A stretch of DNA of 64,000 bases, from the NCBI GenBank assembly GCA_051294905.1, contig CM119380.1, forward strand, positions 558,001 to 622,000, written 5' to 3'. The position numbers were made by a program, and so were the translations under genes. The stretch comes from Botryllus schlosseri (Eukaryota). This document shows, one piece after another, positions 9,448 through 61,701 of the stretch. Every line of letters starts with the position of its first letter. Positions within the stretch are counted from its first letter, which is position 1. Under the pieces are notes generated by a model. It was not told the origin of the DNA, made no database searches, and worked only from the letters and a program-made list of their open reading frames with translations.

Positions 9448-9510
9448 TTAGTTTTTTGACAATTTTCAAATCTGTTCGTTGGAACACCTTCATCAACAAA
9501 GAAAACCAAA

Positions 9511-13302: not shown

Positions 13303-13807
13303 TGTAGCCGCCGTACGGCCCTAAGGTGTCGCTGTGGCTCCTTCACACTCCCGCCGAACAAGGAAGTGGACTCAATGTCATTGTTACCTCACAACGGTAA
13401 CTAGGTCTGACGTATCGTGGTGCAATTCACTGCTTAGTGCACGTGCGTTAGTAGTAGGATCGTTTTGGCATTAGTTCAGTTATTAGAATAGGAATAGTTA
13501 GGTTTATTGCATTGCTAAAATAGGGCTAGTTAGGTTAATTCATTCATTGTCTCACTGTTTTGATATCTATTGTTACAGTCAAAGTAAATCTATAAATAAA
13601 ATAAAATAAAAAACCCGGAAGACACATTGTCAAGTAAGATGCTTTGTATTTGATAGCTTAGTACATACTTGCCAATGCTTATTGTATTTCATTTTTAATA
13701 GAAAACACGCACCAACAAAGCGAGTCTTTTTCTCTGTGCCGAAAGGGAATATAAGCAGCCAGATATTTCAATCCACCCTGTGGCGCGATCTGCGGGTTGC
13801 GGCTACA
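13303..13807 (+). repeat. 3' LTR (LTR3, 505 bp)
   Basis: TGTAGCCGCC...GCGGCTACA. Only one copy of the 22-bp unit. Followed by the ATATG TSD. Confidence 0.95.
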
Positions 13808-14739: not shown

Positions 14740-15140
14740 CAGTGGTTCTCAGCCGCGGGTCTGCGAAGTGTCTAATTTACAAAACGATTGATAACCATAT
14801 TTCATTTTCAAAATAGAGAAATTACGAGGTGGTTTCGCTTCATTACTGCATCAACCGAATGTCCATCTGAGATGAAATAGCCTCAACATATTGCTGTTAA
14901 GAGATATTTTGTTGATAAAAAAGTATCAACAAAATAAGGTCAATGAGCGTGATTGAATTGTTTTGCAAAATCAATTTACCTGTGGTATCCATAACCGCTA
15001 CTTCAAAACAACTTCGAGATGAACTGCTGTTTGTCACTAACCTACAGTTACACATTCGCAAAACACAGATTGCACGGTGATTGAGCTAAATTTGAACCAA
15101 AACTTGGGGTCCGCGAAGATAAAAAGGTGGAGAACCACCG
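14740..15140. mobile_element. hAT (Charlie-like) MITE, degenerate
   Basis: Termini CAGTGGTTCTC...GAGAACCACCG with subterminal GGGTC(T/C)GCGAAG. No clean 8-bp TSD. Confidence 0.5.
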
Positions 15141-33344: not shown

Positions 33345-35400
33345 TGACTTTCCGCTGCAAGAGACTATTGATATTTGTGACAACGCGCTGTACGGTGGTA
33401 AGGTACTGCCACCATCAATCCCGCGTAACGTCTTCGTTGAACTTTTACAAGTGGCAACTTGTTCCGTTGAGTTTAGCTTTAACGGGGTAATGTATAGACA
33501 ACCAGACGATGTGGCTATGGGCAGTCCCCTGGGACCTATTAAGGCTGTATCAGACGAGGCGATGTCGGCCGATAATTTCTCTACCATCATGTGAGAGATC
33601 GTTGCACTTGATTAGTTTCAGAAGGCGTTGACCCGTTGCATTTAAACCTGCTCGGGGATGATTGACATCTGCGAATCGGTTTTTTGTTGTTGTACAGGTC
33701 AGGTACACTGTACTGTACAACGTACATACTACCGTATTATGATCAGTGATGGGCGGATAGTGATTTCTGAGAATCCGAATCCATCCGACAGCTCAAAGCT
33801 CTGATGAGCAATCCTTCCGAATACGAACAATCTCATCCAAATACCCATGCAAATCCGAAAAATCTTGTCCATAATCCAGAAAATCCGAACAGAATAAATA
33901 GTCCGAAGAATCCCAATTGTGCAGCAGAGTTAGATACATTTAGGGCCTAGAGTTGGCTGGTTTATATTTGCTTGGACCTTTGACAAAACAACTTTAGAGT
34001 GCTACCAGTCCTATAACAAGGGGTATACTGTCCGTTTTGGTTGTCGAGCTGACGATTTTTTTCTTTCGACTTGAAGTCAAAAGTCACGTCTGGTCAAAAT
34101 TATCCGGAAACAAAGTTACAACTAGCCGAAAATATTCGAAACTAATTCTGCAATATGGTTATGATGTCTGTCCAATGTGTTCATGCTGCAATGTCTTGTC
34201 GAATGAAACCTTCTCTGAACCATGGTAGTATGGTATTTGTAAGGGTAGGTCAAAAAAGTTGAAGGTAGCACGAGTTTTGACTGCCATGATAGCTGTAGAA
34301 GAATATGCGCGTGCTGATGCTACTCGAAGGTGGTGGATGCATCCGATTTTGCAACGCCGGCTTATACTGGATAAGTGGAGCGGCTCAATAATTTAGTACT
34401 ACATCGCAGTAATTCGTTTCGCAATGCCTCGCCAGAAGGTCCGTCCGGCAAACGGCTTGAGCAAAAGTGACGCTATTCAAGTCCCGACACTGGTTTATAT
34501 ATGGATACGCATGAGCGCATCTCTCACTTCTCTCATCGCCGGCGATGTCGCCGAGTTAATTGACACTGTCAATTAAAATCGGCGGCGATTCGGCCGATGG
34601 CAGCGATGATAAAACAAACACTAACGCTCCGCCGACATCGCCTCGTCTGATACAGCCTTTACGGTTGACAGCGTGAGTCCGTCAAACCACTGTTGTATCG
34701 CCGATATGTAGATTATACTTTTGTGATATGCATGAATGAGTCGGAGTGTGTGATGAATTTCTCATTCGCTTGAACTCGCTTCACCCGGCCTTGCAATTCT
34801 CAATTGAAAAATAACTCAATAACTCATCATTTCTGGACGTTTTAGTCGAAAAGCGCAATACCAACAAATTTGAAACGCCTGTCTTCAGGGAACCGACATT
34901 CACAAGACAATACCTTCGTTGGAATTCATTTAGTCCTCGACGCAGAAAGATTAACCTCATATGTTCGGGTAACAAACTCAGTTTAGAACTTGACACAATC
35001 CGAAAAATCTTACTTTGATAACGGTTACCCTGAACACGTCATCAGCCGCGGCATAGAGGGGAAATTACCGCAATTCTACGCATAAAAATCGACAGAGCCC
35101 ATCGAACGAACAATAAAATATTTCTGCGGTCAGTAAGTGTTACGACACAGTCAAAACCAATGTGATTTTTACGACAACACAACTGCTTCCTTCAACACGC
35201 AAAGACGTGCTGTGCTCTTCAACAAAGTAATGTAGTGTACGAATATAAGGGCCACCGTGATTGTGGCTACGTGGGAAGAACGTCAAAACTACTGCAGGAA
35301 CGCATAAACCAACATGTCTCCAGATTTATCAGAACACGTGCATCATGCTCAGTGAAAAGCTCATCCGCTTAAGCTTGATGCTGACCGATCAAAGGCCGTT
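33345..35400 (+). mobile_element. Penelope-like element (RT + GIY-YIG), decayed and split by a Harbinger MITE
   Basis: PLQETIDIC...EFSFNGVMYRQPDDVAMGSPLGP | YRRYVDYTF, LNSLHPALQFSIE, VFREPTFTRQYLRWNSFSP, SNVVYEYKGHRDCGYVGRT...ERINQH. Confidence 0.9.
33542..34658. mobile_element. Non-autonomous PIF/Harbinger element, copy 2
   Basis: Same TIR as 102-1257. TSD TTA (33539-33541, 34659-34661). Inserted right after the Penelope GSPLGP motif. Confidence 0.92.
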
Positions 35401-40860: not shown

Positions 40861-43208
40861 TTCCGTGGTTATTCAGAAAATGGTAATACTTGAAAAAAAG
40901 CGCGTAAACCAGAGAAATAGTTGGAAAAAGCGCGTAAACCGAGGAGGGGGGCCCTCGAAAGCGCGTAAATCAACCAGGGGGGGCCCTAGGCCGCCTACCT
41001 CGCCTACCCCAAAAGCCACCACTGCCTGTGATCCATCACATTCAAGATACCTTGGTATTTCTCTCGACCCTACCGACTTCATTGCCCTTTGTGGGAGGAT
41101 CATGGATGGCTTCAGAAATGTTTTTCCAGTAACAGTCGTACCGTTGTATACGATATGTTTCGTATGCTGCGATACGGCCAATCATGGTTTCAAGTCTTCC
41201 TCATCGGAAAACAGTATCGAAACCATAATTTTCGTAGATAAAATAACTTTGAGTACCTAGGAGCCTAAAATTTCAGTACTCGAAAAAATCGTATTTTGCT
41301 ACTCGACTTGAATCAATAAAATAATTACTCGATTCAGATTCGAGTACTCGAATCATTGTGCCCAGCCCTACCCATCATACGCCTGCCCGCAGCATTTTCC
41401 TAAACTCAATCCGAAAGAAGCCAAGCATTCCTGGATATCATTACTCAGTGTTTCCGAATCACATTTTGGTGTTTGACAAAATTACTCAGTGTTTCCGAAT
41501 CAGATTTTGGTGTTTGACAAAATCCCCAAAACACCTTTCGTAACCCAATCGCTGTCCGCGTTCCGGGCGCAGACCGAAACCTGTTTTTTTTCCGGATTAT
41601 GGAGTAACATCCTAATCCGGACTTTTTGATATCGTTGACAATTTGTCGCAGAATTGCGTGTGAGGGAAGTTCCAGAATTTGTTTTGGAATGTTGTGAATC
41701 AACCATGTGTATCTTCTACTTTCACTAGGGTTGTTAGTCCGTTTCCCATGACTTAACAAATTCTAGCTACTTTTTTTGTAATTCACCCCCTGCATCCGTG
41801 TGCATGTTGCCGTTTTTTCATGCACCTGATATTTTGACTGATGCTGTTCGCGAGTCTAGCGTAGGATTACAGTGATTATAGCCTTTAATTATTTGATTTT
41901 ATGGACGTGATACTCTTGTTATATATACTGGGATAGGAAGCAGAACTTGAAAATGTCTTTTCCAGTGACAGTGGAGTACCGCCTATCTGTTGCTCTAAAT
42001 ATATGTTATTTCCTAAGATAGCAATATACTGGTAGGTGGTTTGAGTAGCAATATACTGGTAGGTGGTTTGAGTATTTCTAATATTGAAATAATTATCTTC
42101 CATGATAAATCAGGGGATATAATCCGGCTCTTCTTGTGCAGTTATGCAGTATGTTTTGACCAAAGAGAACAAAATTGTTTTATCAACAAAATTGTTTTAT
42201 TTACTCTTTGATGCTTGACTGAGGTGATGTATATTTATTCTTCTAGAATGAGCCGTAGGGCGAAATGTCTGGAAAAAAGAAACCTGCAACAGTATCAAAG
42301 AAAACTAGAAGAAAACGATCGCAGCTCGATCCAGCACAACCGATATTGCAAAATGTGACAGCAATAAATTATACGACCATTCTAAATTTAAATTAATTAC
42401 AAATAAATAGGTGGAACGCTAGGTAAAAGGCACAGTTATCAAATCGGGATTTCAAAGAAGTTGGCTTGACATCTTTCCTTGGCTAACATAAAGCCTATCA
42501 GAGGACGGCGGTTACTGTGAGTATCGAATGTGACTATGGAACGGAAACTCCCGTTTTCCCATTGTTAGGTCACGCTTGACTGAATCTAGCGACTTTGGTC
42601 AATCGCAGCGCAACAATCGAACAATTTGCCTTAGTTTAAATGGCATATCACACTTATAGATACTCAACTGTGATAACGAAATTACTAGACTAATCAGTTA
42701 GTGGTAATCTTGAAACTTGCTACAGTGTTAGATGACATCATTAACATATACAATTAGGAAGCTAGTCGCTCATCTGGGTATGCAACACAATCAAAATCAA
42801 CATAGACCGATAGCGGCTTTTGCGAAAAATCCGTTTTTGGCTAGGCTGCTCGCACCTATACACTCGACTTCGATGACTAAATTACCACCCTAATCAGTTA
42901 GTGGCAATCGTGAAACTTGCTGCAGTGTTAGACGACATCATCGAGATATAGGGCGGAGGCCAATTCACTGACTCAAAGCAAAATTGCTGACTTAGGATCA
43001 GAACAGTGACTCAGCGCTGGGCCAATTCTTCGCTTCATTGTTTTCAGCGACTCAAGTGGAGGAAAATTTGAGACAGGCCGTCAGGAAGTTTAAGTCAACA
43101 ATTGTGGCGCGGAAGTCGCTACAAACGTATAATTGTGTGTCGGGCTGCGTTGGATTCGTAGACGGCGTATTAACTGTGGTTTCATTATATTCTATCAGTA
43201 TAGATATT

Positions 43209-44501
43209 ATGGAGTATGTGAATAGTAAAAAGCCAAGAGTACCAAATTTTACGCCATCAGAAAAAGATCTTCTTGTGGACCTTATAGCGATGTACCCTGC
43301 AATAACATGCAAGAAAACGGATTAACTGTCCCGAAACACTAAAAAGGCGGCTTGGGATAAATTAACAAGTGAATTTAATGCGTCAGGACTAGCAGCTACT
43401 ATGAGGAGTTCTGAAGCGTTGCTGAAATGCTGGAAGAATATTGAATCCCGCACCAAAACTGTTCGTGCCCAGCAAAATCGGGAGCGATTCAAAACTGGTG
43501 GAGGGCCAAAAGTCATCATTGAGAGCGATAGCATCACTGATAAAGTTGAAGGTATATGAGCAATATGAGCATATGAGACTTTTTATAGTTATTGTGTGTT
43601 GCCAACGAAAAACAGTTACCGGTACCGTATCAATTGACATACCAGCATCTAGAATCTGAATTGTTCAGAACAATCGGATGATAGCAAAACAATGAGCCGT
43701 TGCGGCTCTCCGATTGTTCGGACAATGCCGATAATTCAGACCTGGAGGGCGAATTATGGGTGGTTCAGTGCCTGATCATATTTTAATTTATATTTTCGTT
43801 GGTGCGACAGTAGCGCTCCGGAAGATAACTTTCGCATTGCCAGAAATCCGCCTACAGTTGCTCCATGTTAACATTCGATACTCACAACTTCAACTTTGTC
43901 AGTTATGCTATTATGCATCTTTTGTCACACTGTTTGCTATTTCAGCCCTACTTCCAAAAGAATCATTCGGATTGCACAATCCATACGACGATGATGCTGG
44001 CTGTGTGGAATATATCAATGGTTGGTGATTTTAATGTGCAGCTCATCAAGCAACATTTTTAAAATTAACCTGATTGATTCAGGCGATGAGGTAAAAAGAG
44101 ACGAGGCAGTCGCATTGGTATTAGTAGAAGAGAGATCACAGCAAGCTCATGATATGAATGTTTCTGCTGCGTCTTCATGCTCAAATAATATCAGCATTTC
44201 GGAGAAGAGTTCTGCAAATTCAGGTGATATATCCAGTCATTATTTTCACAACAGTTCGTTCATCTTCTTCACTTTTGGTTTGTCAGGTTACAGTAAAAAG
44301 GAGCGAGAGCAAGATCCATATAGTCTTAAGCGTAGAGTGCTGGAGGAAGAGCTTGAGTTCATTCAGTTTAAAAAGAAAACTGAGATGATTATGGTGGATC
44401 AGCAGTCAGAACTGTTTCAGTTGAAAAGGAAAAATGAAATATTGAAAGGAGAGCTTTTAAAACTGGAACTGCAAAGTAGGAAGCAAGCCCAAGAGAAATA
44501 G
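43209..44501 (+). pseudogene. Harbinger Myb/SANT-like DNA-binding protein (3 exons: 43209-43551, 43946-44020, 44083-44501), one in-frame stop
   Basis: RVPNFTPSEKDLLVDLI...KKTD*LS...KKAAWDKLTSEFNA...LLKCWKNI...KTGGGP. The splice phases give VEA|LLP...GLHNPYDDDA|G. C-terminal coiled coil. Confidence 0.8.
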
Positions 44502-44599
44502 GCGGAATATTTATAACAGTTGTTATGTTTATTTCAATACAACAAGAAAAACTCGTTAATGTGAATGAACATATTATAAGCAACCGTTGGTTGTACAAA

Positions 44600-45640
44600 T
44601 CAAGTGAAAAACCGGCGAATTATGCTCCTGCGGTATGCTCGTGCGCCAATAGAATCATCAGTTTCTTCCACATTATCAGGATTTGACAGATCCAGTTCGT
44701 CTTCATCTAAAGTATCCTGTCGGGTATTAATAGCCAAATTGTGAAGGCATGCAGCAGCAACGATTATGGCAAGGCTGTTTTTCATATCAGTTCTTAGTGC
44801 AATGCTAAGACACATAAATCTTCGCTTCAACATACCGAAGCAGTGTTCGATGCGAGTCCTCGTAGCGATTTGTGCTTTGTTATACCTCCTCTCCCCAGGG
44901 GAGGTCGGGTTCAAAATTGGAGTCATCAGCCAGGTTTTCAGTCCATAGCCATTGTCACCCAGCAGCAGACCAGGAATTCTTTTTTCCAAGAATGAGTTAT
45001 ATATTGACGTATTTGCTAGAATCCGGCTGTCGTGTGTCGCTCCAGGCCAGCGCGATACAATATTGATGATCCTCCGGTTAGCATCACATATTACTTGGAC
45101 ATTTATTGAAAAATAACCTTTGCGGTTTCTGTATACTTCTGCACTATCACCCCCAGGTGACTGTATGGGAATGTGGGTGCAGTCAATTGTACCCACAACA
45201 TCGGGAAATCCAGCAATATTATAAAAATTTGTCTTGGTCTCCGAGAAGTTCTCAGGCAGTTTTATGAATATACATTTTTTACGGCATATTGCCCTCACCA
45301 CTTTGTGCACACTTCTCTGTGCAGTACGGCGAGCAACTCCTATGAGATCGCCATCGGTACATTGGAAGTTTCCTGTCGCAAGGAAGCGTAAGGTACATGC
45401 CAATGGAATGACAGGGGGCAATGCGTGTTTACCGCAATCCAATTCATGGTCATCACGAATGACGTCGAACAATTGCAAAAACACTTCCTTGTTGAAACGG
45501 TACCTGTCCTTAAACTCACTGCAGGTATATTTTTCAAGTGGATTCTGCACATCCCGTAAATATTTTCGCCGTGAGTTCGGGTTTAACACTTCTTCGCCGT
45601 CAATACAGTTTACGATTTCCACAATATCAATAGCATCCAT
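44600..45640 (-). CDS. Harbinger transposase (HARBI1-like DDE_Tnp_4), intact, 346 aa
   Basis: FKDRYRF, LRFLATG, VVGTIDCTHI, YRNRKGYFSINVQVICD, WPGATHDSRIL, LLGDNGY, YNKAQIATRTRIEHCFGMLKRRF. No stops. Confidence 0.95.
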   Translation of the reverse strand: MDAIDIVEIVNCIDGEEVLNPNSRRKYLRDVQNPLEKYTCSEFKDRYRFNKEVFLQLFDVIRDDHELDCGKHALPPVIPLACTLRFLATGNFQCTDGDLIGVARRTAQRSVHKVVRAICRKKCIFIKLPENFSETKTNFYNIAGFPDVVGTIDCTHIPIQSPGGDSAEVYRNRKGYFSINVQVICDANRRIINIVSRWPGATHDSRILANTSIYNSFLEKRIPGLLLGDNGYGLKTWLMTPILNPTSPGERRYNKAQIATRTRIEHCFGMLKRRFMCLSIALRTDMKNSLAIIVAAACLHNLAINTRQDTLDEDELDLSNPDNVEETDDSIGARAYRRSIIRRFFT

Positions 45641-48549
45641 CGCCTATATCAAAGTAAACAAAACCTATATCGAACTACAGATAACTTTACTACGTAAATA
45701 CGCTGGTTGCCATGGAGTTATGGTTACAGCGATAAAACGTCTTATGACGTCTGCGAAAGCCACTGCTCAGCTGAGTCGGCTGGTGTTTGGACTTTTGGCG
45801 CGGAGTTGAGTTGGTAATCGGAACGCGCCTCAACTGAGTTCGTATTCGTGACTTAAGTTAGTTTTTTTTGAGACTAGCTTTTGGCCTCCGCCCATACACT
45901 TCGAAAGCTAGTCGCTTATCTCGGTATTCAACACAATCAAAATCAACAATTCAACATAGTCCGAAACCGGCTGTTGCGAAAAATCCGTTATTGGCTAGGC
46001 TGTGCGCAGTGCGCACCTAATACAATGCGTATGTAACGAAATTACTAATCCAACTGTGTAGGAAGAGCCTTCAAATTTCGCGCAGAGTTATAACGCATAA
46101 TCCGAAAAATAGATACGAAATCTCGTCATCTCTCCCGCTATGGAAACACCTTCAAAATCTATAGAGCAACACAGGTTTTTGCGTAAAATCTGTTCCGCAG
46201 GTAGGCCTATAGGCTGGATGCAGGACCGTAACAGCACTTCGTCAGGCCCCCCAAAACGTTGGTCTTAGGCCCCCCATAGGGTGATAAATACAGGCCGACG
46301 CCGAAATGCCCATTTGAAGTTGCGTATATTTGCAGGTTCGCGCAAAGTGCGCTATCGCATAATAGATTTTACGCGAGTATATAGGACATAGGTGCGCGCA
46401 CCGCCCAGCCTAGCGCGTAACGTATTTTTCGCAAAAGCCGGTATCGGTCTATGTGGATTTTAATTGTGCTGCATACCCAGATGAGCGACGAGCTTTCGAA
46501 TTGTATATATTGATGATGTCATCTAACACTGTAGCAAATTTCAAGATTACCACAAACTGATTAGTAGGGTGATAATTTCGTTATCGAACTCGAGTATATA
46601 GGTGCGCGCAGCCCAGCGCGTAACGGATTTTTCGCAAAAGCCGCTATCGGTCGATGTGGATTTTGATTGCGTTGCATACCCAGATGAGCGACTAGCTTCC
46701 TAATTGTATATGTTGATGATGTCATCTAACACTGTAGCAAGTTTCAAGATTACCACTGACTGATTAGTCTAGTAATTTCGTTATCAAAGTCTAGTAATTT
46801 CGTTATCAAAGTCGAGTATTTATAAGTGTGATATGCCATTTAACTTAAGGCAAATTGTTCGATTGTTGCGCTGCGATTGACCAAAGTCGCTAGATTCAGT
46901 CGAGCGTGACTTAACAATGGGAAACGGGAGTTTCCGTTCCATAGTCACATTCGATACTGTGAGCCTTGTTATGTTTTTTCTCGGCATTGGCTGGTGCAAT
47001 GCGCTAAAACAATTTGTGACTACTCCAGTCACCAACTGGAAAAAAATGAAAGATCTTTGCAATGAGCATCAAGAAAAAAAGTTCCACGGCCTTGCCGTTC
47101 AGCGACGTGAATGATTAGCGCAGGCATTCCGGACCGGCAATGATGCATAGCGGTAGGAAACGCTCGGTCGAAATAAATCGGAAGGTCATGTCTTCGATAA
47201 TCGACACACTCAAATTATGCGGCCGCCAAAATATTTCGCTGCGTGGCCACAGGGATTCAGGGCGTTTAGGCCCGACCGAGACATATGAAACTGCTACGAA
47301 CGAAATTAATTTTCGCGCCCTTCTCTGGTACAGGATGGCAGCAGTGGATCAAGCCCTAATTGATCATTTTCGCGACGCGCCTGGAAATGCGCAGTACAAC
47401 AGTGGCGGTATCCAAAACGAAATAATTAATTTGTGTGGGGATAACATTCGGTCTGAAATTGTTCAAAGAAATAAAGCGGCTACTTTATTCTCTGTTCTCG
47501 CAGACGAAACAAGCGACGTTTCCACCAAATTCGTCCGGTACGCCGACGTGAATACAAAATTGGACGGCATCCTTCGCGAAAATTTCCTCGGATTTGTACA
47601 CGTTAAGGACCTGACTGGATAGGCCTTAGCTAATTAATTGATTAGGTCCCTAACATCGGGAGGTGTTGACCTTAGTGGCCTCAGGGGTCAAGCCTCAGGG
47701 GTCAAGGATACGACGGTGTCGCCAATATGTCTTGTGAGTTCAGGCTTTTGTCCGTGAAAGGTTTGCCGGTGCTGCCTACACGCACCACAACTCGCACGTA
47801 CTGAATCTTGTACTTTCGCATGCTTGCGGGGAAGCCGCCATCAAAAAGACAGTGAGAACGATTCAGGATGTGATCGTTTTCTTTAATGGCAGTAATAAAC
47901 GCACTGAGATTCTCCAATGTGCCATAAAGGCTTTGTGCCCTTCCGCACACAGACCGAGGTTGATGCCTTTGTGCGAGACTCGCTGGGTGGAGAGGCACGA
48001 CGCTGTAATGATATTCTGCCTGATGTATCCGTCAATCGTACATTCCCTGGATGAAATAGAAAACGGCAACGACAACACAGCTACAAAGAGCTCGGCTGGA
48101 CGTTAGCGTTTGCGAATTCGGATGACGGATTTTGTGGCAAATATTCCGGAAAAACTAGTCGGTTATTTCAGAAACAGGTTCTCGGATATCTCAGAAATAG
48201 GTTCTGAGAAGATTTCCAAAGAAAGCTTCCAGAACATCTTGTGAGAAGGTCCGCAGGCAAACATAACACTGGTCGACATGATTTTTGTTTTCTGGCCAAA
48301 ACGATGTCTATTAAGTCAAGATAAGGACATCCCACTTACAGGGTCCAGGGTCGCCTATATTTATTCATCAAGTGTTTTTGGAGTTGACAGGAAGTGTTGT
48401 CATTTTTGAAATATGTCAGATACCTATATATTAACCTCTATATTATCGACAATCGTAGCAGTTTGCCAGTGGTCCGTTCAATTCTAGATATTGTAGGCCT
48501 ACAGCACGTTATTTAATTCGCAGGTTTTTTCAAATGACAGATCTTTCTA

Positions 48550-51170: not shown

Positions 51171-54100
51171 TAATATATTGATGCATGCAGATTCCCTAGA
51201 ATGTCATAATAACGGATTAAATATATTGAGTGTTCCTCATACCCAAACCTCGATAGATAATTCACAATATGACATCGTTAAACTACACAGTGTGGGAAAT
51301 GTAATGGAAATTTCGGTTCAGATGCAGTAAATACCTACTCTACACGGGGAACACTGTTTGAAATTCGAGAGAATGGTTGTAAAAGAAGTGTGTTGTGACG
51401 AGGCAAATAATTTATTGAAGTTTACTTGAACTTATATGGAACAAATGAATTTAATACCACCAAAATTTGACGTGTAAGCGTAAAGAAAATGGTGGAAATG
51501 TAGTGTAGAGTAATCTGAACTTGAGGGTATTAATGTAGTGTACGTATAACAAGGATAATTGCTAGAAACAACCATAAATTGCCAGAAGAATAATTCGTCG
51601 GCCATTTTAAATAAAGCGGAGTTTGAGGTCGACAGCGGTAGCCTATGATTCACGGCAACCACATATTTCAAAATAACGGTTAGCGCTTGATGCGATGCGA
51701 ATTCAGGAAGTTATAAGGAGCCGAGGCCGAATCGTGACACTTAGTCATTTCTGCTCGTGCACGAAGTCGTTATAATGGGTCATTTATAATGATGAGGGAG
51801 ATTAACTCGCACACGAAGCTGTGCCATTTTGGTAGCTGATAGAGCCGAAAACAATTGGTTAATGAGTACGGCTGGTCCACGAACTGTGATTCATAAAGAA
51901 TAAAGAGAGAATAACTTGTCACGAGCTAGGTCCGAAATTAATTACCAGCTATTAAGTAAAGGAAGTCTTAGTTTTTTTTTAATCAGAAACCCATATAATC
52001 CGCTGCGCAACACAGTCTAATTCAGTCCGATCTGGACTCGCAACACGGAGCAGAAGGAATTGAAGCTTAGAAAGGACACAGGAGCAAGGCGGCCATCCTT
52101 GCACCGAGGCTACGGCAAAGATCACAGCGCTGAGTTGAGTACTTTATAAATATTGCGTGTCCCATGTAGCGGTAGCTAAACGTAGTTGCAGACGTGGAAG
52201 GTTGGGGCTTTGCTCGGTTATCTACGCGCTTGAAGTAGTGCGCACCAAATCGCCTTGTGCTTGCACCCTGTAAAGAGAAAATTTAGTACACCGAATATGT
52301 TCCCGATTGTAAAAAGCCGGCCTGTGTTTACTTTGGGTGCCCTTTCGATTACCCTTGAATGTGCGGGTCCTTTCAGTTTGAACTCGAGCCCCTGGGCTCG
52401 CAGATACGAGCAGCCCATGATGGAGGTTACGGGCACAGCTTGCGGGCCATATCTACCCATAGTCCACTCTGAGGTCGCTGTGGAAATCCCGGCAAGTTTC
52501 GCCATAACAAGATTTTGGAATTACAAATTACGGCCGGCATAAAGGCGACCCGGCCTGCATGTATGTATGGAGTTGTGCGTTTTTTTTCGTATCGAACGCA
52601 AGATACTATCATAAGTAATTTGGATTTTTCCGAAGGTTGTAAGATCCTCGTTTGTGGAAACCCGTCGAAGGGGACCCACTTGAAATTAATATATTAATAT
52701 CCCTATTATTAATGCCGCGGCCGCAGCACCTCCAAGACTTGGGAGAGAGGCTTGCGAGCATGTCCGAATTGGGGCCTCTGGATAGAACAGGAAGGCGTGA
52801 AATGATAAAATATTTAATTGGTTAAGGTAGGCTGCCGTTTGTCAAGTGTGGGAATGTGTCTGATTTAGTGCATGCTAATTATTGTTTTTCAATAACCTTT
52901 TTAGGCGATTACTGTCAACAGGTACCCGGGATCATCAATGTCCGAATATTATTATGTAGGTCTATCCTGGGAGACTAGGCTGGGAAATGCGCGGGGTCCC
53001 GCTTGGAGGTGTTGCGTTAACTACGGCGATTTACGAGCGCTGCCGAGCAGACCTTACACTAAGTAAGGAATATGCACCTGCCACCCGGTGGGTTCATATC
53101 AGCTTCAAATCGGAAGTGAGTCAGGTTGAGTAAAATACTTACGGCACGTTTTGGTAGCTGGCAACCTCCAGACGGGCGATTAGTCCCTGGAGCAAAGCCT
53201 TCATTGCGAGCTTGTGAACAGATGCGAGCGACGCGATGGGCTGGGCCTTTATTGTCTCAAGTTCAAGATGGGCTTTGTTCCAAAGCGTATAGTTAGTTAA
53301 CGTATAAGTTAGTTAGGGATAATTCCATTCTTAGATGATTGCACGGCAATCCGGGCCCAGGAACCAGTAACTCGCCTCGGTAGCGGGAAGCCTTACGTCT
53401 ACCGCAAATAGGTGCAGTAGGATCCGCAGAGCAGGCATTGCATAGCCGCTCGCAGGACCACTGTACATATCGAGCGAGTTCTAGGCTACGGCCTGGGGAA
53501 ATTTTGTAGAGCGTAGATAGCGATAGGCTGAACCAAGGACTGTAACGCCCCAGGTTCAATACGAACCCTAAAACCCGCAAGGATGGGTAACAATCTAATG
53601 TTCTAGCGCAGAGCCGGGCCACGTGTGGCCCGCAAGAGAGTTTAAGGTGGCGCGTGTGGTAATTTGCGAAATTAGTAAGATTATTAAGGGTGGATTGCAC
53701 AGATTGTGAACTTGTAAGGCCGACCAAAACTTGATTGGTCTGGCCGCCGCCGTTGAGACGTGATAACTAAAATATCAGTTCCGACGCGTTCCCAGATCCA
53801 TGAGGCGGTCACATTTTGGTGGATCTTCATACACTACTATAAAGCGGAATAATTTGCGATAGATTTATCAAAAGCAAAGATTGTCTACACGCTTTGCCCA
53901 ACACGTTGTCACTCGATTTCTTACTTTTAATAAGGTTACAAAAACGCCTAATGTGTCAGTTTGAGTCGAATTACATTCGCGGTTGCGAGACTAAGTGTCG
54001 TTCGGATTATGCGGCCTCCGTTTGCACTCGCAGAAAGACCTCGAATATGAAAACTAGGCACGAACTGCATTTGTAACTGTGATAATATTCACCCGCTTTT

Positions 54101-57100
54101 TCGACATTCTTTCTCTACAAAATGAGTTCTGACTATTCGGTGCTTTGTTTAATGCGAACGCCAATACAATTGCCTGAAAATTTCAAATGGGCTCTTCTGA
54201 AATGCGATGCAGTTGAATTGAGTGACAAATTTCATACAAAGAGCATATCGACAAAGGGTACGTTCTTGAAATTGGTCTTTATCGCAACTTGAATAGCAAT
54301 GCAAAAGGAATTGCATCAAATTTTGGAAGCTCGTGCGCCTGTGAACAATAGTTGCGAGCAATGAAATTCACGAAGAGCAAGCTAAGATTACGTATTTCTG
54401 ACGTCAATTTTGAATATGGTCTGATTCTTCTTTCATTTGACTCGTTACCAGACCTCGCTGACGTAAGATGAAACGGACTAACTCAAGAATAGCGTCAGAA
54501 ATATACCCACTTGTCGCATTAAGTAATAACAAGGACAAAGTCAAATTGGATTTATTATTGGTACTGCAAGCAGGCGACTCAAACCAGGCTTGGACAACTA
54601 AATAATTCTAGTCGTCTAATCTCACGGAATTAGAGCGAAATGCCAGTAATATAATTCTAATCTAATTTTGAAAAAGCTGCGTAGCTCTAATTCTAATTTT
54701 AACATAATTTGAAAAAGCTGTGTAGCTCTAAATCTCATCTAATTCGGAAAAGCTGAAAATTTTCTAGTAGTCTGGGTCTAACTCGAAATGAAAATATATT
54801 TACCTATATCTGAACGTCACAAGCGCTACTATTCCGGCAAGGTCAATACACTCAATACCATTCTGATCAGGACGTCAATGCCCCTGTGGAGACGCTGTAA
54901 ATGGTCACGGAGCAGCGAGCCAGTTCGTTGGCTACTGTGTCCATTTTGTGTTGTCATGTATATCGGGGCCTTGTGTCGATTTTACGTCCTAGCGCTGAAG
55001 CGCCAGTATAGTTGCCGGCTATCTAATCGCAAACAACAATGTCAACGGATTTCCAATTGCTACCTCGATACCTTTGGTGCTAGACCTTGGAGAAGATCGA
55101 CTAATATTCCAAAAGTTTAGGGCTACATATTGTGATTAATAAACATCGATATCTTGGTCACTAACTAGGATTAATAAAGAAGTATAATGTAACCGGAATT
55201 ACTAGGCCTATAACATTAGGTATACTTCAGGCCAGTACTGCTAATATAAAGACCTTAGAAAAGTAACCCATGGTTGAACTTATCCACACATTCGTTTTTC
55301 GAAACTGATGTGTCGATGATGGAAAATGACACTAGCCTAAAACCCGCTTTGTCCGCGTATTCACTTTACGAAGTGAATGCGCCTGACGAGCGCCATTTTG
55401 TCGCATTGCAATCATTACGTGTATGAACTATGAAAGTTTACTGTATTGGCAAAAATCAATCTGCTAATGGGTATTTCATGTGAGGGTTTACTATGATGAA
55501 TTATTGTATGGTGACGCCAATATTTCCTATTGTGTTCAAGTACTGCATTCACCGTATCTTTGATATCTACGACCCGGTTACTTTAAAATGACACTAACAT
55601 TTTATGTCTTAGATATGGGTATGGGTTAATGACCATTTATTATGTGAATTTGGTTGTTACTAGGCCTACTCTTATTTAATAGCGAGTAGCCTACTACATC
55701 TGTAGGCATCAAGAAGGCATCATAACTGACCCCGCCCCTATACTAGCGTCAGGACCCTTAACCCCAACGGGACAAAAGTTTGTGAAAATTTGATGCGTAA
55801 TGGACCATAGGACAATAGAAACATGGGTATTTAAAGACCTCTTGGGGTAAGGCATTGGAGCATATGTGAGTTCGAAATTCGCAAATAAGCCTAGTCTATT
55901 GCCTATGAAGCACGATATATACGATTGATTAAAAAAGCTTAAGCACACCAATACTGGAAATTAAGGAATATAGCATGATTACAATTGGGATATTGGTTCA
56001 CATATGACTATTATAAGTGAGATGGTATCATTTTGTGCTTATCTGGGACTGTGTCGTATGCGTGTTAAGTGTTAGCTATACCATCAGTTTGCTTTACCAA
56101 AAATGGCGCCACCATTTTTTTCATGCATGCGAGCTTTTACAGTGAGCCGAAGTATGACTGACATGTGTATGCATATCTATGCCATGTATGATGTCCACAT
56201 GAATTGTACACTCAGTTGTAGTATCCAATTATTGCACATAAAGACGACATCGGTGCGTCCGCTAGTTTCGGCGAACTTGTGACTCTATGCCAATGTAAAT
56301 CCGCCAGTCTGAAACAGAGCCCCAAACGAAGCATCCAGTAGCAGACTATATCCAGGAAACCGGACATTGACCGAGGCATTGCGGAAGGGTTTGACGTCTT
56401 TTGAGATTGAAGGGTGATGTTCCGATGTCCCTCTGAAAAATCTTGACATGCTATTGATTGGATCGGCTGCTTGCTGCAGTTGCAAACTATACAGAAATAA
56501 AGCAGTGCGATGAAATGGGAGCGACTGCTAACCGAAATTGCAATGTATATATAAATGAAGAAGCTTGATTATATTTGCTGGAATCGCTCCATAAAGCCGA
56601 TGAGCTAAAGATGGAAAGAGCCAAGAACATAGAGGTATTGCATTCGGAATATCGTTACGACGTACCCTCAACAAACCCCGCGTTCTGTTGGACTCGGAAT
56701 GCCCGATCTCCGAATCGACACGCAAGTACTTGATGATCCTAAGTAGTAACGACTCAAACAAGGGGTCGGTTCCTGGACTAATTGCAGTTTGATATCTGCA
56801 TCTGGAAGACTGGGGAACTCTTATAAACAAGGTGGTCGGCAAATTGGTCAACTTGAACTCTGTGTGGTATTGTTTTTTTGTGGCATCGATTGGCATATTT
56901 CTTGCATATTATATGCATGTATATTGTAGGCAGGAAGTACCGTCACATTTATGGTGTAAACACACCTTGGAGTATTGAACTGTTATTAATCGTGCATGAA
57001 TATGAATAGGTTAAATCTTGACTCGTGTTGTGATTGACGTATGTTCCGTGTGCCAACTTAACCGAGTTTTGCATAGATACTTCATTGCTGTCTGCATGAT

Positions 57101-58292
57101 AATTATTGGAATATGTTGGTTGAATTAAGCCAAGGGGCTTGTCTATTGTATGAATAGTTTGAGCCGCTGGACCTTCCAAGGTCACTGCTTCGTTCGATCA
57201 ATCTGCAACCAATGCTTCAATCAACGTCGACAAAACCGGGTTGTATAAGGGGTGTGGAAAAATGTGGAAAAGCCAGGAGATGGGGTTGAGCTCTGTGAAG
57301 TAAATCGAACCAAGTGTGGAATACTTGCATGGCAAGCGCCATGAAGCTACACTATAATCAAATGGAGGCACCAACTGAAGGTCTTCTGGGGCTCAGCGTC
57401 ATTTCTTGGCAATTTCAGTGGACGGGGGAGAGTCTGAAGACGAACACATCGATTACCTCCTTACTATCTGCGAACGCCAATCTATAAAAAGAAAAGATCG
57501 TCGAAGGATCACAACTGGGGTGCCAATTTTACGGAATTATTTGGTCGCCGGACTTTGTATTTAGTTGACACAACAACAGGTTTTCTGCGCCGACACGGGA
57601 AGCGTCCTCAAATTGAAAAACGTCGTAGAAACCTAATACCCGCCAAGCTGGGAGGAGCGACAACCTATAGACATGAAACTACGTGATATAGGTGACTCCT
57701 CCCACGTTGACTCCTTAGTAATAATCAATTTCGACAGACTATCGGCTCCATTTGCGATCGAGAATGGAGACCTCTCGATATTGTAGGTCTAAAATCGATT
57801 GATCATGTACAACAATTACCAAACATAGCGACCGAATTTGAATCTCCGCCTGATGCAAACGAAGAGTTGTCTTTAGTAACGCTTCATGACGGGATCTCGT
57901 GTGATCAACGGGACGGAACCAAAGTCGGAAGCAGTCTTCGCGACACTGTAACCGATGATGGGTTGATGGAAGCTGCAAATCAAATTAGCGTCGAGCCGGC
58001 ACGTTGTCTGTGTCGCCGCAGGCCGTTGCCGCTGGCGCAAGTGTCGAGATGGTAATCACCACTCGCGCGAAATGTGTCGAGTCAGGAATCCCTGCTGGCA
58101 CCAATCATAAATACGCCGATCTTACGACGGCAACTGTCTTACCTTCTTTCCCAAAAGGTAAAAAAATATGGGAAATCCCTAGTGTTGGGTCAGGTAGCCC
58201 CTGCTGGCACTAGTCGAGAATGTGTCGGGTCAGTTAGCACTGCTGGCACTAACTAAAGATGTGTCGAGTCAGGAATCCCTGACGGCACCATT

Positions 58293-58560
58293 CAGAAGAC
58301 GTCGAGCGTGGAATGCCCGCTGGCGCAAAAGAGGACCAACACGAGAAAATTGGTCCTGAAAGCTTTCGTGGATGCACTTGTCCGAATATCTGTAACAATT
58401 CGGCCCATAGCTTGCATGCGACAGCAACAGAAGACGTCGAGCGTGGAATGCCCGCTGGCGTAAATAAGGACCTGCACGAGAAAACTGGTCCTAAATGCTC
58501 TCGTGGATGCACTTGTCCGAATAACTGTATTGATTCGGCACATAGATGCATGACGACAGC
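58293..58560 (+). repeat. 135-bp coding tandem repeat (2 copies; 45-aa unit with CTCPNxC)
   Basis: EDVERGMPAG...RGCTCPNICNNSAH.. / EDVERGMPAG...RGCTCPNNCIDSAH.. Shorter related CVESGIPAG units occur upstream. Confidence 0.85.
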
Positions 58561-59079
58561 CACAGTCATGAGTACTACTCCAAAAGGTTCAAACAAAGCA
58601 GCTGTTGCCGGTCAACCAGATACATGCCCGGACATGTCCGGCAAGGAGTCTGGGGATTTTAAGATGCACGTCTCCCCAGAAACGGGCCCCGGCGGCGACC
58701 GAATCCGCCGGCGTGACGGTAGGCGTGGGCACGCGCCGAGATCAGAGGTCAGATTGAATAGGTTGGGAATCCCCGCTGACAACGAAGAGCCTCGCCCTCT
58801 CTCCACCAACACCAAAACCCCGTTCATCACGAGATTCGCATTGGGCCAATAACTGCATGGCCCAATTACTATGTAGCCTAACCTTACAGCAAGACACCAG
58901 TCCCAGCGTGAAGACGGAACTCGAAAGTCTCTGGGCACAATCGGTAGCACTGGCGAAACTGTCGTACAAACCTCCTGACTTTTGACTGGCCTAGAAATTA
59001 TCGCCATTCCTGAAGGAGTCTTGACAGCCGTTTATGATCCATTTGCTTCCGAACTTGATAGCCTGCGGGGCCAACTCAG

Positions 59080-59390
59080 CGCCCCCCAATCCATGAAATA
59101 CCAATGCGACATCGGACGTAAGGACCCATCGACTGAGCCTTTCGTTTCTGGCCCTTATAACCTGACGCGGGAGGGTCAGGCGAAGGCACTAAAGGAAGCA
59201 ATAGATATAATACCTGATTTTGGTATTATTGAACAAGGTTTTGCCGAATGAAAATTGGCTATTTTTGTTGTTCATGACAAAACGAATGAAAGACTACAAG
59301 ACAAGGCGAGCCGCACTCGATAGTAACAAGAAAACCCCCTTCCCAAGAAGTGTACATGATCGCTTACTACAGTTAGACGTGGGTAACTCC
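59080..59390 (+). pseudogene. Gypsy/Ty3-like reverse transcriptase N-terminal relic
   Basis: EPFVSGPYNL...ALKEAIDII.DFGIIEQ...AIFVVHDK, then a frameshift, then DYK...LDSNKKTPFPRSVHDRLLQL. This resembles the Gypsy PYR...GIIEPS...VxKK...DYRxLN...YPLP block. No YxDD follows. Confidence 0.5.
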
Positions 59391-59905
59391 AGCGGCGAAA
59401 GCCCATGATCCATGCACTACAACGCTGAAACACCTACTACCCATAGCTCTGGCATGGCGGATGGAAACGACGCTGGTGCAAGTTACACAATCGCAACCGA
59501 TGCATGTAAAAAAAGACAAACTGTGACTGCTCATGGGAGGCAGCAGTTGCAAACTCGCACACGTAACCAACCCGAGGAAACGATGCAAACCAGCGGTGAA
59601 GCACCAATGACAACGCGTGTACTTCCAGTTACCACTGCGGACGCTCTGCAGGACTCCACGGATGACGGCGGAATTGGAATCGGAGCGTACTACCAAGATC
59701 CGGATCACAACCATAAGGCAAGTACCGAAACATTCATTTTGTATTTATCAGGAGACAACAACGACGACTCATCCACGAAGAGTGTCGAACTAATGACTAC
59801 TATCTTGACGTCAACGATGGATGACGCATCGCTATAGACTGGGCAGAAGAACATCAAGGGCTCGAAACGTCCGCACCTGAATATCCCCGACTATCAAGAA
59901 CCACC

Positions 59906-60241
59906 GTGGGAAAGACAACCCCAAAGTCGACTGATTCGAGCTATACTCGACGGCTACACAAAATGGTGAGGATGGAAGGCGGATATAAGGTAGGAGGCTT
60001 ATCTTTCACCGATAGGATGATTATGGAAGGTGCGAAACTGATACCTACACTGGAACCAGTGGCTTTAATAATGGCGGTAACAGGGTTGATTGCTCTGTTG
60101 AGTGTGATATGGGTAAGTTATATAAAGTGTCGTCGACGTAGAACCTTAAGTCGCACTAGGAACACGAGGAGACGAAACGGAGCAGAGCAAAGGATGGCGA
60201 TAAGAGTACTACGGAACACAACGGAGAATTACAGAATTTGA
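59906..60241 (+). CDS. Membrane-anchored protein C-terminus (TM plus Arg-rich tail), preceded by a Thr-rich ORF at 59412-59837
   Basis: VALIMAVTGLIALLSVIWVSYI followed by KCRRRRTLSRTRNTRRR. Confidence 0.55.
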   Translation: MGKTTPKSTDSSYTRRLHKMVRMEGGYKVGGLSFTDRMIMEGAKLIPTLEPVALIMAVTGLIALLSVIWVSYIKCRRRRTLSRTRNTRRRNGAEQRMAIRVLRNTTENYRI

Positions 60242-61701
60242 AGGTAACAGAATTGGTTCTTAAAATTTACTTGTAAATACAAGATGTATGAAGTTTGTAT
60301 AGGAAAGTAGTGAAGTGTGATGTTATAATTGTGGTAAATCGTTAAGTAAATTTGTGATAGGTATCAGGCGTACAAAAATAATCCCGGCGACGCATGGTTT
60401 GTAATAGGTTTCAAGTGAAGTATTTTACGTAATGGGCGTAAACGGAAAAAACTGAAACCTCGTAACTAGAAATCTGCTGAGGTGTGAAATATCAAATCGA
60501 GAGAATTATAAAAGAAAAAAGTTGACGTGTAAAAATACTTAGTCATTAAAGTGATAACCATGAACGGGTAATGTTGGTGTATAGTTCACTAGTTCCGAAA
60601 TTTCATTGCCTCAGACAGATAGATATATCGACCTGCAAAATTCATTCTTGCGATTATGCCTGAAGCTTACTAAACGTGATGGAACAGATTTAGCGGATGA
60701 CGCGGAAATAGCATTTGTCAACAATATGTTAGATTCTCTTTTCAAAACTATCGGAAATGAAGTAATCACCAATTCAGACAATTGCCCGCATACTAATCGT
60801 ATATCTATCCACTGTTGAATGACACACCAGGCACGTCTAACAGTTTTGTTCGGGGTCAGGGCTTCCACAAAGACACCGCGAAATTTATGGATACTATAGG
60901 TGCTGAAAACACAGGGTATGTCACGCGAAAAGGTCTTACGAAAAGTCGTAAAGTATTGGAGTTGATTGGTAAAATTCGAATGGGGCTTTTCGAACAATCA
61001 AGATGCATGCTGGATAATGTCGACATGAAATTACGATTCACATGTAACGACGACGATTCACATGTAACGACGACAAATTCTGCCTTCTTGGAAACACTGA
61101 AGACGTGAAAATTATTATTACGGATATGGAACTTTATGTCAAACAAATGATAGTTGCAGAGAGTGTCAGCTTAGCTCACAAGTCGATAATACAGAAATCG
61201 AATGCTAAATACCCGTGGTCTCGTCTTCAAATTTCAACTCATACATTCGCCGGGGGGCTGATGAAGTTGGATCGCGAGTTAGTTAGCGGGAAAAATTGTA
61301 ATTGGTTTGGTTGAAACCATAACATTCAACGGTGTTAGAAACAAAAATCCGTTCAAATTTAGACATTATGACGTTCAGAATTTGTCATTCGCTGTTTGTG
61401 GCAATTACGAGGAAGAGAATTTCATTTCGATTATGATAAATCAGGGGATTTAGAAGGTTATATATGATGCTCTGTTCTGAGACAGGGATGTGGGAAGGTG
61501 AGGCACCTTTGAATATATCACCCACTGACTATATGAACCGTTATACTCTGTTCGTGTTTGATTTGACCCCAGACAATAGCTTAGGGTGTTACCAACTACG
61601 CGAAACTGGAACCGTACACCTGGTTTTGACAACTTCCAAACCACTACCAACGTCTGTCACATTGCTGTGCCTAAAAGAATATCAACACAGGTCGTAGAAA
61701 T

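What the first reader, a model, noticed from the sequence alone, without database searches (positions are those of the whole stretch)
51315..60596. 9.3-kb unclassified element in a Polinton capsid gene: 8-bp TSD, no LTRs or transposase seen, Gypsy RT relic plus several membrane-protein relics
Seen: exact TSD GAAATTTC; excision restores the capsid frame (VMEIS|LPQTDRYIDL). The ends are GG...CC with only 12/21 inverted identity. Contents: a minus-strand relic ending in a TM (LGGAAAAALIIGILIY, ~52690-52745); a plus-strand Cys-containing relic ending in a TM (SVWYCFFVASIGIFLAYY, ~56850-56915); a repeat-rich region; a Gypsy-like RT start (~59080-59390); and a Thr-rich ORF followed by a TM plus Arg-rich tail (59412-60241). 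Known: Gypsy integrase makes 4-6-bp TSDs with TG..CA LTRs, while 8-bp TSDs are typical of hAT, Merlin, P and Zisupton. Inference: either a DNA-transposon vehicle (GG ends would suit Merlin) carrying enveloped-retroelement or viral glycoprotein cargo, or an undescribed multi-glycoprotein retroelement with different integration chemistry.
Basis: partly seen in the sequence, partly recalled or inferred. Interest (0 to 1): 0.85.

Follow-up and report, generated by a model that had tools for sequence, protein, structure and literature searches.

The report
Reverse-transcribing virus inserted by DNA transposase
This 9.3-kb insert is a cut-down copy of a family of giant jumping elements in a likely sea-squirt genome that carry retrovirus-type capsid, reverse-transcriptase and envelope-like genes but no integrase or long terminal repeats, and that are likely inserted by their own Merlin DNA transposase after likely replicating through an RNA and a circular DNA.

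Summary
The insertion is real: an 8-bp duplication flanks 51315-60596, 12 of 13 other capsid-gene copies are empty there, and 27 of 30 other loci with these ends have their own perfect 8-bp duplication. The window copy is a non-autonomous deletion derivative of 38-42-kb elements with the same ends. These encode Gag, protease-RT-RNase H-KptA (no integrase), a Merlin/IS1595 transposase and two envelope-like glycoproteins, without LTRs. The scan already reported this family on other DNA. Added here:
- Sister families have the same genes in circularly permuted order.
- The chordate spliced leader sits inside the elements, upstream of gag, and is the point where copies swap partners.
- A transposase-less sister family lies in permuted, rearranged pieces, like plant endogenous pararetroviruses.
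- All core genes are under purifying selection.
Best model: an enveloped, pararetrovirus-like element with an RNA/circular-DNA cycle, inserted by a captured Merlin transposase. No end-to-end junction was found, and an end-linkage test was negative. Ten literature searches found no description.

The parts
51307..51314 (.). Left copy of the 8-bp target-site duplication
60597..60604 (.). Right copy of the 8-bp target-site duplication
51315..60596 (+). Whole non-autonomous element, 9,282 bp, a deletion derivative of 38-42-kb coding elements (family A)
51315..51633 (+). Left terminal region: GG start and short imperfect inverted repeat; 77-90% identical to the left ends of three coding-intact copies
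51843..53939 (+). Apparently non-coding region, also in the 5' part of coding-intact copies (66-74%).
53648..54971 (.). Very high-copy genomic repeats carried inside the element (bin limits). About 2.3 kb present in the closest sister copy is missing at 54452
   Evidence: DNA contig depth 40,000-72,000 against 200-15,000 elsewhere
55065..55781 (+). Non-coding DNA matching the region about 1.5-2.8 kb upstream of gag in coding-intact copies (74-77%)
56023..57104 (+). Region just upstream of the spliced-leader copy (inferred U3-like / RNA 3' end). 79% identical to the gag-upstream region of another family
57105..57129 (+). Decayed copy (3 edits) of the 24-nt chordate spliced-leader exon; exact (23-24 nt) in coding families; inferred RNA 5' end and strand-transfer site
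57211..57221 (+). Short stretch that can pair with the first 9-12 nt of the leader (candidate self-priming site; not significant in this copy, 12 of 100 shuffles as good)
57525..59293 (+). Frameshifted pol relic: protease, spacer with a 135-bp repeat (58293-58562), N-terminal part of RT (Pol residues 53-578 of 1188)
59265..59460 (+). Two small late-Pol fragments (residues 828-849 and 880-925, connection/RNase H); the rest of RT, KptA, transposase, env1 and most of env2 are deleted, and gag is absent
59410..60241 (+). C-terminal relic of the second glycoprotein (Thr-rich stalk, TM, Arg-rich tail), in two frames
60242..60596 (+). Right terminal region ending CC; last ~200 bp 88-92% identical to coding-intact copies
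51181..51314 (+). Host side: 5' part of the interrupted multicopy gene (probable Polinton major capsid)
60597..60818 (+). Host side: continuation of the interrupted gene up to its next break

Best explanation
The insert is a non-autonomous, internally deleted copy of a family of 18-42-kb elements that encode Gag, protease-RT-RNase H-KptA, two envelope-like glycoproteins and a Merlin/IS1595 transposase but no integrase or LTRs, and that likely replicate like an enveloped pararetrovirus (RNA, reverse transcription, circular DNA) and are likely inserted by that transposase. SHOWN: shared ends, 8-bp duplications, gene content, purifying selection, circularly permuted gene order between families, an internal spliced leader (SL) upstream of gag where copies swap partners, and a transposase-less sister family in permuted pieces. 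INFERRED CYCLE: (1) the transposase excises the element and the two ends are joined into a circle; (2) a long RNA starts at the SL (host trans-spliced, or templated), runs through gag-pol, crosses the joined ends and stops just past the DNA copy of the SL, which gives a short terminal repeat; (3) RT, possibly self-primed by the SL 5' end, jumps between the two SL copies and gives circular DNA inside a Gag particle with an envelope; (4) the transposase opens the circle at its ends and inserts it with an 8-bp duplication. The window-type copies lack gag and mostly share a decayed SL, so they probably move mainly as DNA, cut and pasted in trans, and only occasionally pass through RNA.
For: ENDS. 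27 of 30 other loci with these ends have a perfect 8-bp duplication (one of these extends to 9 bp); one has 7 of 8, one has 3 mismatches, one right end was outside the fetched DNA. Three coding-intact copies (38.2, 38.3, 41.7 kb) share both ends. Four more families have GG..CC ends with a perfect 8-bp duplication in 8 of 9 pairs. GENES. zf-CCHC E=5e-4, RVT_1 6e-17, RNase H 2e-18, KptA 2e-5, DDE_Tnp_IS1595 9e-13, no rve. No LTR-like repeat in 2 of 2 intact copies. The Gag core model (pLDDT 83) has retroelement capsids in 16 of its top 23 rows, Z 5-6. LINKAGE. 58 of 68 RT loci have a same-strand transposase within 60 kb; 85 of 90 transposases of 38% identity or more lie by an RT, against 0 of 12 ordinary Merlins; chance about 1%. 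Element transposases form their own clade. Contigs in three runs labelled as other organisms bridge pol-transposase, and two of them also transposase-env1. SELECTION. dN/dS RT-RNase H 0.02-0.03, gag 0.10-0.21, transposase 0.14, env1 0.09-0.22, env2 0.30-0.42. CIRCULARITY. Families A and H read accessory-gag-pol-Tnp-env-env; B-E read Tnp-env-env-accessory-gag-pol. Family F has no transposase in 47 kb and 37 kb fetched, and has gag sequence on both sides of pol-env, with 100%-identical inverted duplications. RNA STEP. A 23-nt motif is identical in 10 of 10 gag-upstream regions and matches the 'Chordata 1' SL (PMC3795323 Table 1). It lies 3.9-7.5 kb upstream of 23 of 32 RT loci (chance 0.3%). In controls it heads LINE copies and sits in both repeats of an LTR-like element. 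Across the SL, copy relationships break (Spearman 0.31 against 0.58-0.74 at four neighbouring borders; 21 of 93 close comparisons drop below 80%, against 0/82, 12/108, 3/63, 0/46), and the flanking 6-7 nt differ in 45 of 61 and 24 of 32 close pairs, against about 22% at control sites (pairs are not independent). RNA reads cover the region before the SL and fall off soon after it.
Against: No right-end/left-end junction in the assembly: 0 matches, and 1 match that was chance. None among the 15 of 71 joints displayed. Left and right ends of 26 window-type copies are not more linked than other segments (Spearman 0.08-0.18 for the longer end segments), although a circle predicts tight linkage. The intact gag-pol-transposase cassette drew only 34 reads from one RNA run. 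The read pile near the SL comes mostly from sister families, and internal priming at an A-rich stretch near 57480 is possible. The anti-SL site is significant only in one family group (1-4 of 100 shuffles; 8 of 8 copies) and is not seen in E and F. The env1 model is poor (pLDDT 50). Ten of 68 RT loci have no transposase nearby, and one of the 58 positives belongs to a neighbouring element. Transposase activity on these ends is inferred from the signature, not assayed.
Confidence: 0.65

Rival explanations
1. A giant Merlin DNA transposon moves only by cut-and-paste and carries a captured retrovirus-like cassette as cargo; RT is not part of its own copying.
For: The ends and duplication are pure Merlin (PMC8101967 passages). 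Window-type copies without gag or a whole RT have spread recently (two copies 99.9% identical on different chromosomes), with a shared decayed SL. No end junction found; ends not linked. Other cargo is present (IAP, E2, LRR).
Against: RT-RNase H dN/dS 0.02-0.03 across families; about 60 long RT frames; the exact SL and partner switching at it; permuted gene order; a sister family with the same cassette and no transposase. Passive cargo should decay, as it has in the window copy.
Confidence: 0.14
2. The element replicates through RNA but without excision circles. Full-length RNA comes from tandem or nested copies or from read-through, or RT stitches a left-arm and a right-arm RNA together at the SL, and the transposase trims the linear cDNA at its ends.
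For: Same RNA evidence as the best explanation. It explains the missing junction and unlinked ends. The window copy differs from its closest sister most at the termini.
Against: No tandem head-to-tail copy in the assembly. It needs a second priming event for the right arm. Family F looks more-than-unit-length and permuted, which fits a circle more simply.
Confidence: 0.15
3. The internal SL is not an RNA end. It is an element-encoded SL-RNA-like gene, a first exon for cis-splicing, or the scar of SL-targeting LINEs/SINEs; the replication mode then stays open.
For: A conserved motif and small hairpin follow about 35-45 nt downstream (likeness to an Sm site is recalled, not tested). About half of the contexts have GT after the SL.
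Against: GT is not invariant and the spacer is not conserved. No LINE or SINE follows the SL in the elements. The hairpin shows no compensatory change (0 of 9 pairs). Partner switching peaks at the SL.
Confidence: 0.05
4. The interval is a chance pile of independent known insertions (Gypsy relic inside a MITE).
For: High-copy repeats do sit inside, and copies are mosaics.
Against: The same ends and colinear interior recur at many loci with separate duplications, and all parts map in order onto one intact element type.
Confidence: 0.01

Closest known systems
Merlin superfamily / IS1595 (IS1016 group) DNA transposons (PMC8101967, 12 of 30 matching passages read)
   Same: DDE_Tnp_IS1595 transposase with DDE motifs, terminal GG, 8-bp (once 9-bp) duplication. 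Highly imperfect TIRs are known in one Merlin family.
   Different: 18-42 kb, carries gag, pol and env-like genes under selection; TIR only about 14-21 bp and imperfect; transposase preceded by a splice-acceptor-like sequence; some families carry two transposases.
Caulimoviridae / endogenous pararetroviruses (features recalled; CaMV RT 8r0s is the best PDB hit)
   Same: Zinc-knuckle Gag, PR-RT-RNase H without integrase or LTR; inferred circular genome with terminally redundant RNA; family F integrated as permuted, rearranged pieces.
   Different: Animal host, envelope-like glycoproteins, KptA domain, own transposase with fixed ends and a duplication; no movement-protein hit; no tRNA primer site seen.
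Teratorn (PMC10175614: abstract, outline and section 10 read)
   Same: A cut-and-paste transposase fused to a non-integrating virus genome and spreading in an animal genome. The review calls Teratorn the first such fusion with a DNA virus.
   Different: Here the virus is reverse-transcribing and the transposase is Merlin, not piggyBac; 18-42 kb, not 180 kb. Section 10 lists no RT-virus plus DDE-transposase fusion.
Metaviridae (Ty3/Gypsy, errantiviruses) and Retroviridae (features recalled)
   Same: Capsid-like Gag, gag-pol overlap, Ty3-type RNase H, furin site + hydrophobic peptide + helices + TM in env1; in families A and H the transposase sits where integrase would.
   Different: No rve integrase, no LTRs, no TG..CA ends, 8-bp duplication; RT-RNase H on its own long branch (22-27% identity to Gypsy).
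Tf1-type self-primed LTR elements and retrogenes with DNA-encoded spliced leaders (recalled; lead from earlier notes e1-7804146, e1-7882894)
   Same: SL copied into DNA at the RNA 5' end; a short downstream stretch can pair with that end.
   Different: One internal SL instead of two LTRs; pairing significant in only one family group.

Membership tests
Merlin/IS1595 DNA transposons | DDE_Tnp_IS1595 transposase with DDE triad | tested here: met
   Met in coding copies; deleted from the window copy
Merlin/IS1595 DNA transposons | 8- or 9-bp target duplication and terminal GG | tested here: met
   27 of 30 and 8 of 9 loci
Merlin/IS1595 DNA transposons | TIRs of 24-462 bp | tested here: inconclusive
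   12 of 21 in the window; short and imperfect in all families; PMC8101967 reports one family with 12 mismatches in 26
Merlin/IS1595 DNA transposons | Single transposase gene, DNA-only cycle | tested here: not met
   gag, pol and two glycoprotein genes under purifying selection
Metaviridae (Ty3/Gypsy) / Retroviridae | Gag and PR-RT-RNase H | tested here: met
Metaviridae (Ty3/Gypsy) / Retroviridae | Retroviral integrase in Pol | tested here: not met
   No rve in Pol of families A, D, F or in close outside relatives; Pol ends after KptA in 6 of 6 families
Metaviridae (Ty3/Gypsy) / Retroviridae | LTRs, TG..CA ends, 4-6-bp duplication (recalled) | tested here: not met
Metaviridae (Ty3/Gypsy) / Retroviridae | RT nested within a known clade | tested here: inconclusive
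   Own clade, support 0.998, stem 0.51; sister group unsupported (0.045); no named caulimovirus or retrovirus rows in the 114-row tree
Metaviridae (Ty3/Gypsy) / Retroviridae | Class I fusion envelope | tested here: inconclusive
   Sequence anatomy fits; Atlas neighbours are class I fusogens at 0.88-0.90 with low recognition; model too poor to search
Caulimoviridae (pararetroviruses) | PR-RT-RNase H with no integrase and no LTR | tested here: met
Caulimoviridae (pararetroviruses) | Circular dsDNA episome with terminally redundant RNA | tested here: inconclusive
   Indirect support; no junction found; ends not linked
Caulimoviridae (pararetroviruses) | Plant host, movement protein, no envelope (recalled) | tested here: not met
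   Chordate SL; no movement-protein hit among ORFs scanned; two glycoproteins
Caulimoviridae (pararetroviruses) | tRNA-Met primer site | tested here: inconclusive
   No shared TGG-type motif upstream of gag in 11 regions; host tRNAs not compared
Teratorn-type fusions | piggyBac transposase plus alloherpesvirus genes | tested here: not met
   Merlin transposase and retro-type genes instead
DIRS/Ngaro (tyrosine-recombinase retroelements) | Tyrosine recombinase, split or inverted repeats, no duplication (recalled) | tested here: not met
   No recombinase hit; 8-bp duplications; no such repeats

The most novel reading that the evidence does not exclude
An undescribed lineage of enveloped animal pararetroviruses (integrase-less Ortervirales with a KptA domain, circular DNA, and the host spliced leader as terminal repeat and primer) exists in tunicates and other unnamed hosts. 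One branch captured a Merlin transposase and now excises and integrates as a provirus through DNA-transposon chemistry, joining class I and class II transposition in one cycle and supporting non-autonomous satellites such as this insert.
Probability: 0.5. Interest if true: 0.96.

Novelty: categorically new. Interest (0 to 1): 0.88.

Why it matters
Known reverse-transcribing elements integrate with a retroviral integrase, a tyrosine recombinase or an endonuclease, or do not integrate at all (pararetroviruses) (own knowledge). A family that uses a cut-and-paste DDE transposase of bacterial IS1595 type would bridge the two transposon classes. It gives a living model for how an RT element can gain or swap its integration module, and it would put pararetrovirus-like replication into animals. 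The transposase-less family F and integrase-less RT-KptA proteins in other collections point to a wider unrecognised virus group. Use of the spliced leader as the strand-transfer repeat would be a new link between trans-splicing and retro-replication. The window copy itself is a decayed satellite; its value is that it shows the ends are enough for insertion.

Tried and rejected
Pfam on six read-through frames of the left 3.6 kb of a longer non-autonomous copy: 0 families. Zisupton/KDZ, hAT, P, MuDR and tyrosine recombinase were considered from the 8-bp duplication; none was hit in the ORFs scanned, and Merlin was found instead. IMG/VR scan: no relative. Metagenome scan: 4 loci, one true relative cut before the end of pol (L079) and three distant RT loci, of which L080 was read and is Gypsy-like. 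End-junction patterns: none real. End-linkage test negative. env1 fold searches: no match with E<=0.001 in BFVD or PDB from a pLDDT-50 model, so no verdict. Gag Foldseek gave no significant match. Rfam: 0 hits in 60 kb. No covariation in the hairpin after the SL. Atlas: no usable hit for the family F ORF after pol. Run search: no RNA holder listed. Unplaced contigs C125, C104, C94 (partly fetched) showed no sign of a circular episome; C125 has a normal right end. Base composition of the target sites was not computed, so target preference is open. Literature: ten searches of the held PMC/bioRxiv library found no paper describing Merlin plus RT/env. Apart from PMC8101967, PMC10175614 and PMC3795323 I saw search listings only; no supplements were read. 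Repbase, Dfam and subscription journals could not be searched and may hold these elements under a Merlin or Gypsy label.
Full report
1. Observation. The element spans 51315-60596 between two identical 8-mers, starts GG, ends CC, and has 12 of 21 inverted identity. In 12 of 13 other copies of the interrupted gene the flanks overlap by exactly 8 bp, so the site is empty there. The gene is multicopy with 432-447-aa frames; its capsid identity is only weakly shown. Both 400-bp ends are multicopy (41 and 63 matches, lower bounds). Of 30 other loci examined, 27 have their own perfect 8-bp duplication. Two 14-kb copies on different chromosomes are 99.9% identical, yet only the last ORF exceeds 200 codons. 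So this is a recently active non-autonomous family.

2. The autonomous partner. A search with the last ORF found copies with 1047-1049-aa frames. Three of them were followed to both ends: 38.2, 38.3 and 41.7 kb, with the same termini as the window copy and duplications of 8/8, 8/8 and 7/8. Their 3' 14 kb hold five ORFs: Gag with a zinc knuckle; Pol with a protease-type DTG motif, RT, RNase H and a KptA/Tpt1 domain but no integrase; a DDE_Tnp_IS1595 (Merlin-type) transposase; a glycoprotein with signal peptide, furin-type site, hydrophobic peptide, long helices and TM; and a second type I glycoprotein with a mucin-like stalk. No LTR-like repeat exists in two intact copies. The Gag core folds with pLDDT 83, and 16 of the top 23 VIA rows are retroelement capsids, each only Z 5-6. 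KptA aligns to solved Tpt1 enzymes over most of their length; its role is unknown. Pyrimidine tract plus AG precedes the transposase in families A, B, C and H and env1 in A (read by eye; no read confirms splicing).

3. What the window copy keeps. Termini; non-coding 5' DNA; internal high-copy repeats; the region around the leader; Pol residues 53-578 and two late-Pol bits; env2 residues 768-1049. Gag, most of RT, KptA, transposase and env1 are gone. The two extra 'membrane relics' have no ORF in any relative found and no codon signal, with the caveat that one positive control also failed. The interior is within about 0-3.5% of the closest sister over most of its length, while both termini are 6-13% away.

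4. A whole clade. The genome holds about 60 long RT frames at 47-100% identity and about 90 related transposases. I used 68 of 104 RT hits and 102 of 135 transposase hits, dropping short fragments. 58 of 68 RTs have a same-strand transposase within 60 kb (one of these belongs to a neighbour). 48 of 51 and 37 of 39 element-type transposases lie by an RT, and 0 of 12 ordinary Merlins do. Families B (38-40 kb), C (25-26 kb), D (17.8 kb) and E (21.4 kb) have GG..CC ends and perfect 8-bp duplications in 8 of 9 pairs. All core genes show purifying selection. RT-RNase H of six families plus five outside proteins form one clade (support 0.998, 114 rows). None of the outside proteins shows an integrase; one is cut short after RNase H and one ends in an exonuclease III domain. 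The best solved relative is CaMV RT (137.6 bits, Ty3 119), which is similarity, not a placement. Contigs of runs labelled as three other organisms bridge pol-transposase, two of them also transposase-env1, at about 94-95% identity. This excludes mis-assembly but is not deep conservation.

5. Evidence on the cycle. (a) Gene order is circularly permuted: accessory-gag-pol-Tnp-env-env in A and H; Tnp-env-env-accessory-gag-pol in B-E. Going from one to the other needs a right end joined to a left end, or new ends placed on a circle or dimer. (b) Family F (RT 46-49%) has the same Gag, Pol and an env1 homolog but no transposase in the DNA fetched. One locus reads pol-ORF-env-accessory-gag with exact inverted gag duplications; another begins in the 3' part of gag and ends in a middle piece of gag. 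That resembles endogenous plant pararetroviruses (recalled). (c) A 23-nt motif is identical upstream of gag in 10 of 10 coding regions, including F, and is the chordate SL consensus (PMC3795323). There are 246 exact genomic copies; within the listed range, 23 of 32 RT loci have one 3.9-7.5 kb upstream and three F loci have it downstream of pol. It heads LINE copies and lies in both repeats of an LTR-like element, so in this genome it marks RNA 5' ends. In our elements it is single and internal, like a one-LTR circle opened at the Merlin ends. (d) Copies change partners at the SL more than at four neighbouring borders, and the bases touching it vary more than control sites. Partial duplications of its 3' half recur. 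One copy has an exact SL with an upstream part from one subfamily and a window-type downstream part (L195). These are expected marks of RT strand transfer. (e) A stretch 80-104 nt downstream can pair with the SL 5' end in most families, significantly in one group only and not in three LINE controls; this test followed a lead from note e1-7804146.

6. Against. No end junction in the assembly or among the joints shown. Ends of 26 window-type copies are not specially linked, though these copies may move mainly as DNA. The intact cassette is nearly silent in the one bulk RNA run laid on it. The fusion function of env1 is inferred from sequence anatomy only. Nothing was assayed.

7. Comparison and novelty. 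It inserts like a Merlin element (features as in PMC8101967 passages), is built like an enveloped LTR element or retrovirus, and probably replicates like a caulimovirus, but it fails a defining test of each. Teratorn is the nearest concept (PMC10175614). Ten searches found no description; Repbase, Dfam, closed journals and supplements were not seen. This scan has already reported the family from other windows of the same genome.

8. Verdict. Real insertion; non-autonomous member of a categorically new element type. Family assignment about 0.97; RNA-plus-circle mechanism 0.65; interest 0.88.

Noticed in passing
window 4539-13810: Three 4,382-bp-spaced repeats around two identical units with 296- and 885-aa ORFs; the long ORF has DUF1759 and a weak zinc knuckle, so a tandem BEL/Pao-like gag-only element.
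   Followed up: partly
window 99-1258 and 33539-34662: Two 98%-identical copies of a ~1.15-kb element with 32-35-bp inverted ends.
   Followed up: no
window 42520-46958: Long inverted-repeat element holding a 347-aa DDE_Tnp_4 transposase at 44600-45643 minus; a DUF4371 fragment follows at 47119-47622.
   Followed up: partly
L089-L091 (G000 C10:14.42-14.44 Mb): Family B carries long single-frame accessory genes on one strand: IAP (3 BIR + RING), ubiquitin-conjugating enzyme, LRR protein, PWWP-C-like proteins and a second Merlin transposase.
   Followed up: partly
L119:6450-7154, L156, L120, L121 (G000 C3:28.66-28.68 Mb, C1:23.95-23.96 Mb): Transposase-less family F: Pol has a G-patch domain, and an unknown 235-aa ORF sits where the transposase lies in family A. 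A prime candidate for a free animal pararetrovirus-like virus.
   Followed up: partly
L054, L057, L059: A second kind of deletion derivative keeps an open protease-to-env2-tail fusion frame (749-1304 aa), a gag-position ORF and an exact SL, with a variant right end.
   Followed up: partly
L022:8344-9399 and other non-autonomous copies: The env2 C-terminal ORF stays open for 219-352 codons in 7 of 10 otherwise ORF-less copies; selection was not tested.
   Followed up: no
L065:3604-7465, L215, L219: A LINE family headed by the spliced leader; one copy is inserted antisense in the 41.7-kb element.
   Followed up: partly
L204-L206: A small element with paired direct repeats 1.8-1.95 kb apart, each containing the SL and a significant anti-SL stretch, around one 380-420-aa ORF.
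   Followed up: partly
P0002, P0053, P0055, P0056, P0052: Integrase-less RT relatives and an env1 relative lie on unnamed contigs of 16-450 kb; P0002 ends in an exonuclease III domain. Env-cluster member P0203 and P0002 lie on contigs of nearly equal length (361,202 and 361,219 bp).
   Followed up: partly
L080:2191-7326: A Gypsy-like Pol from a brine metagenome with what looks like a DNA methyltransferase domain between RNase H and integrase (motif recalled, not scanned).
   Followed up: no
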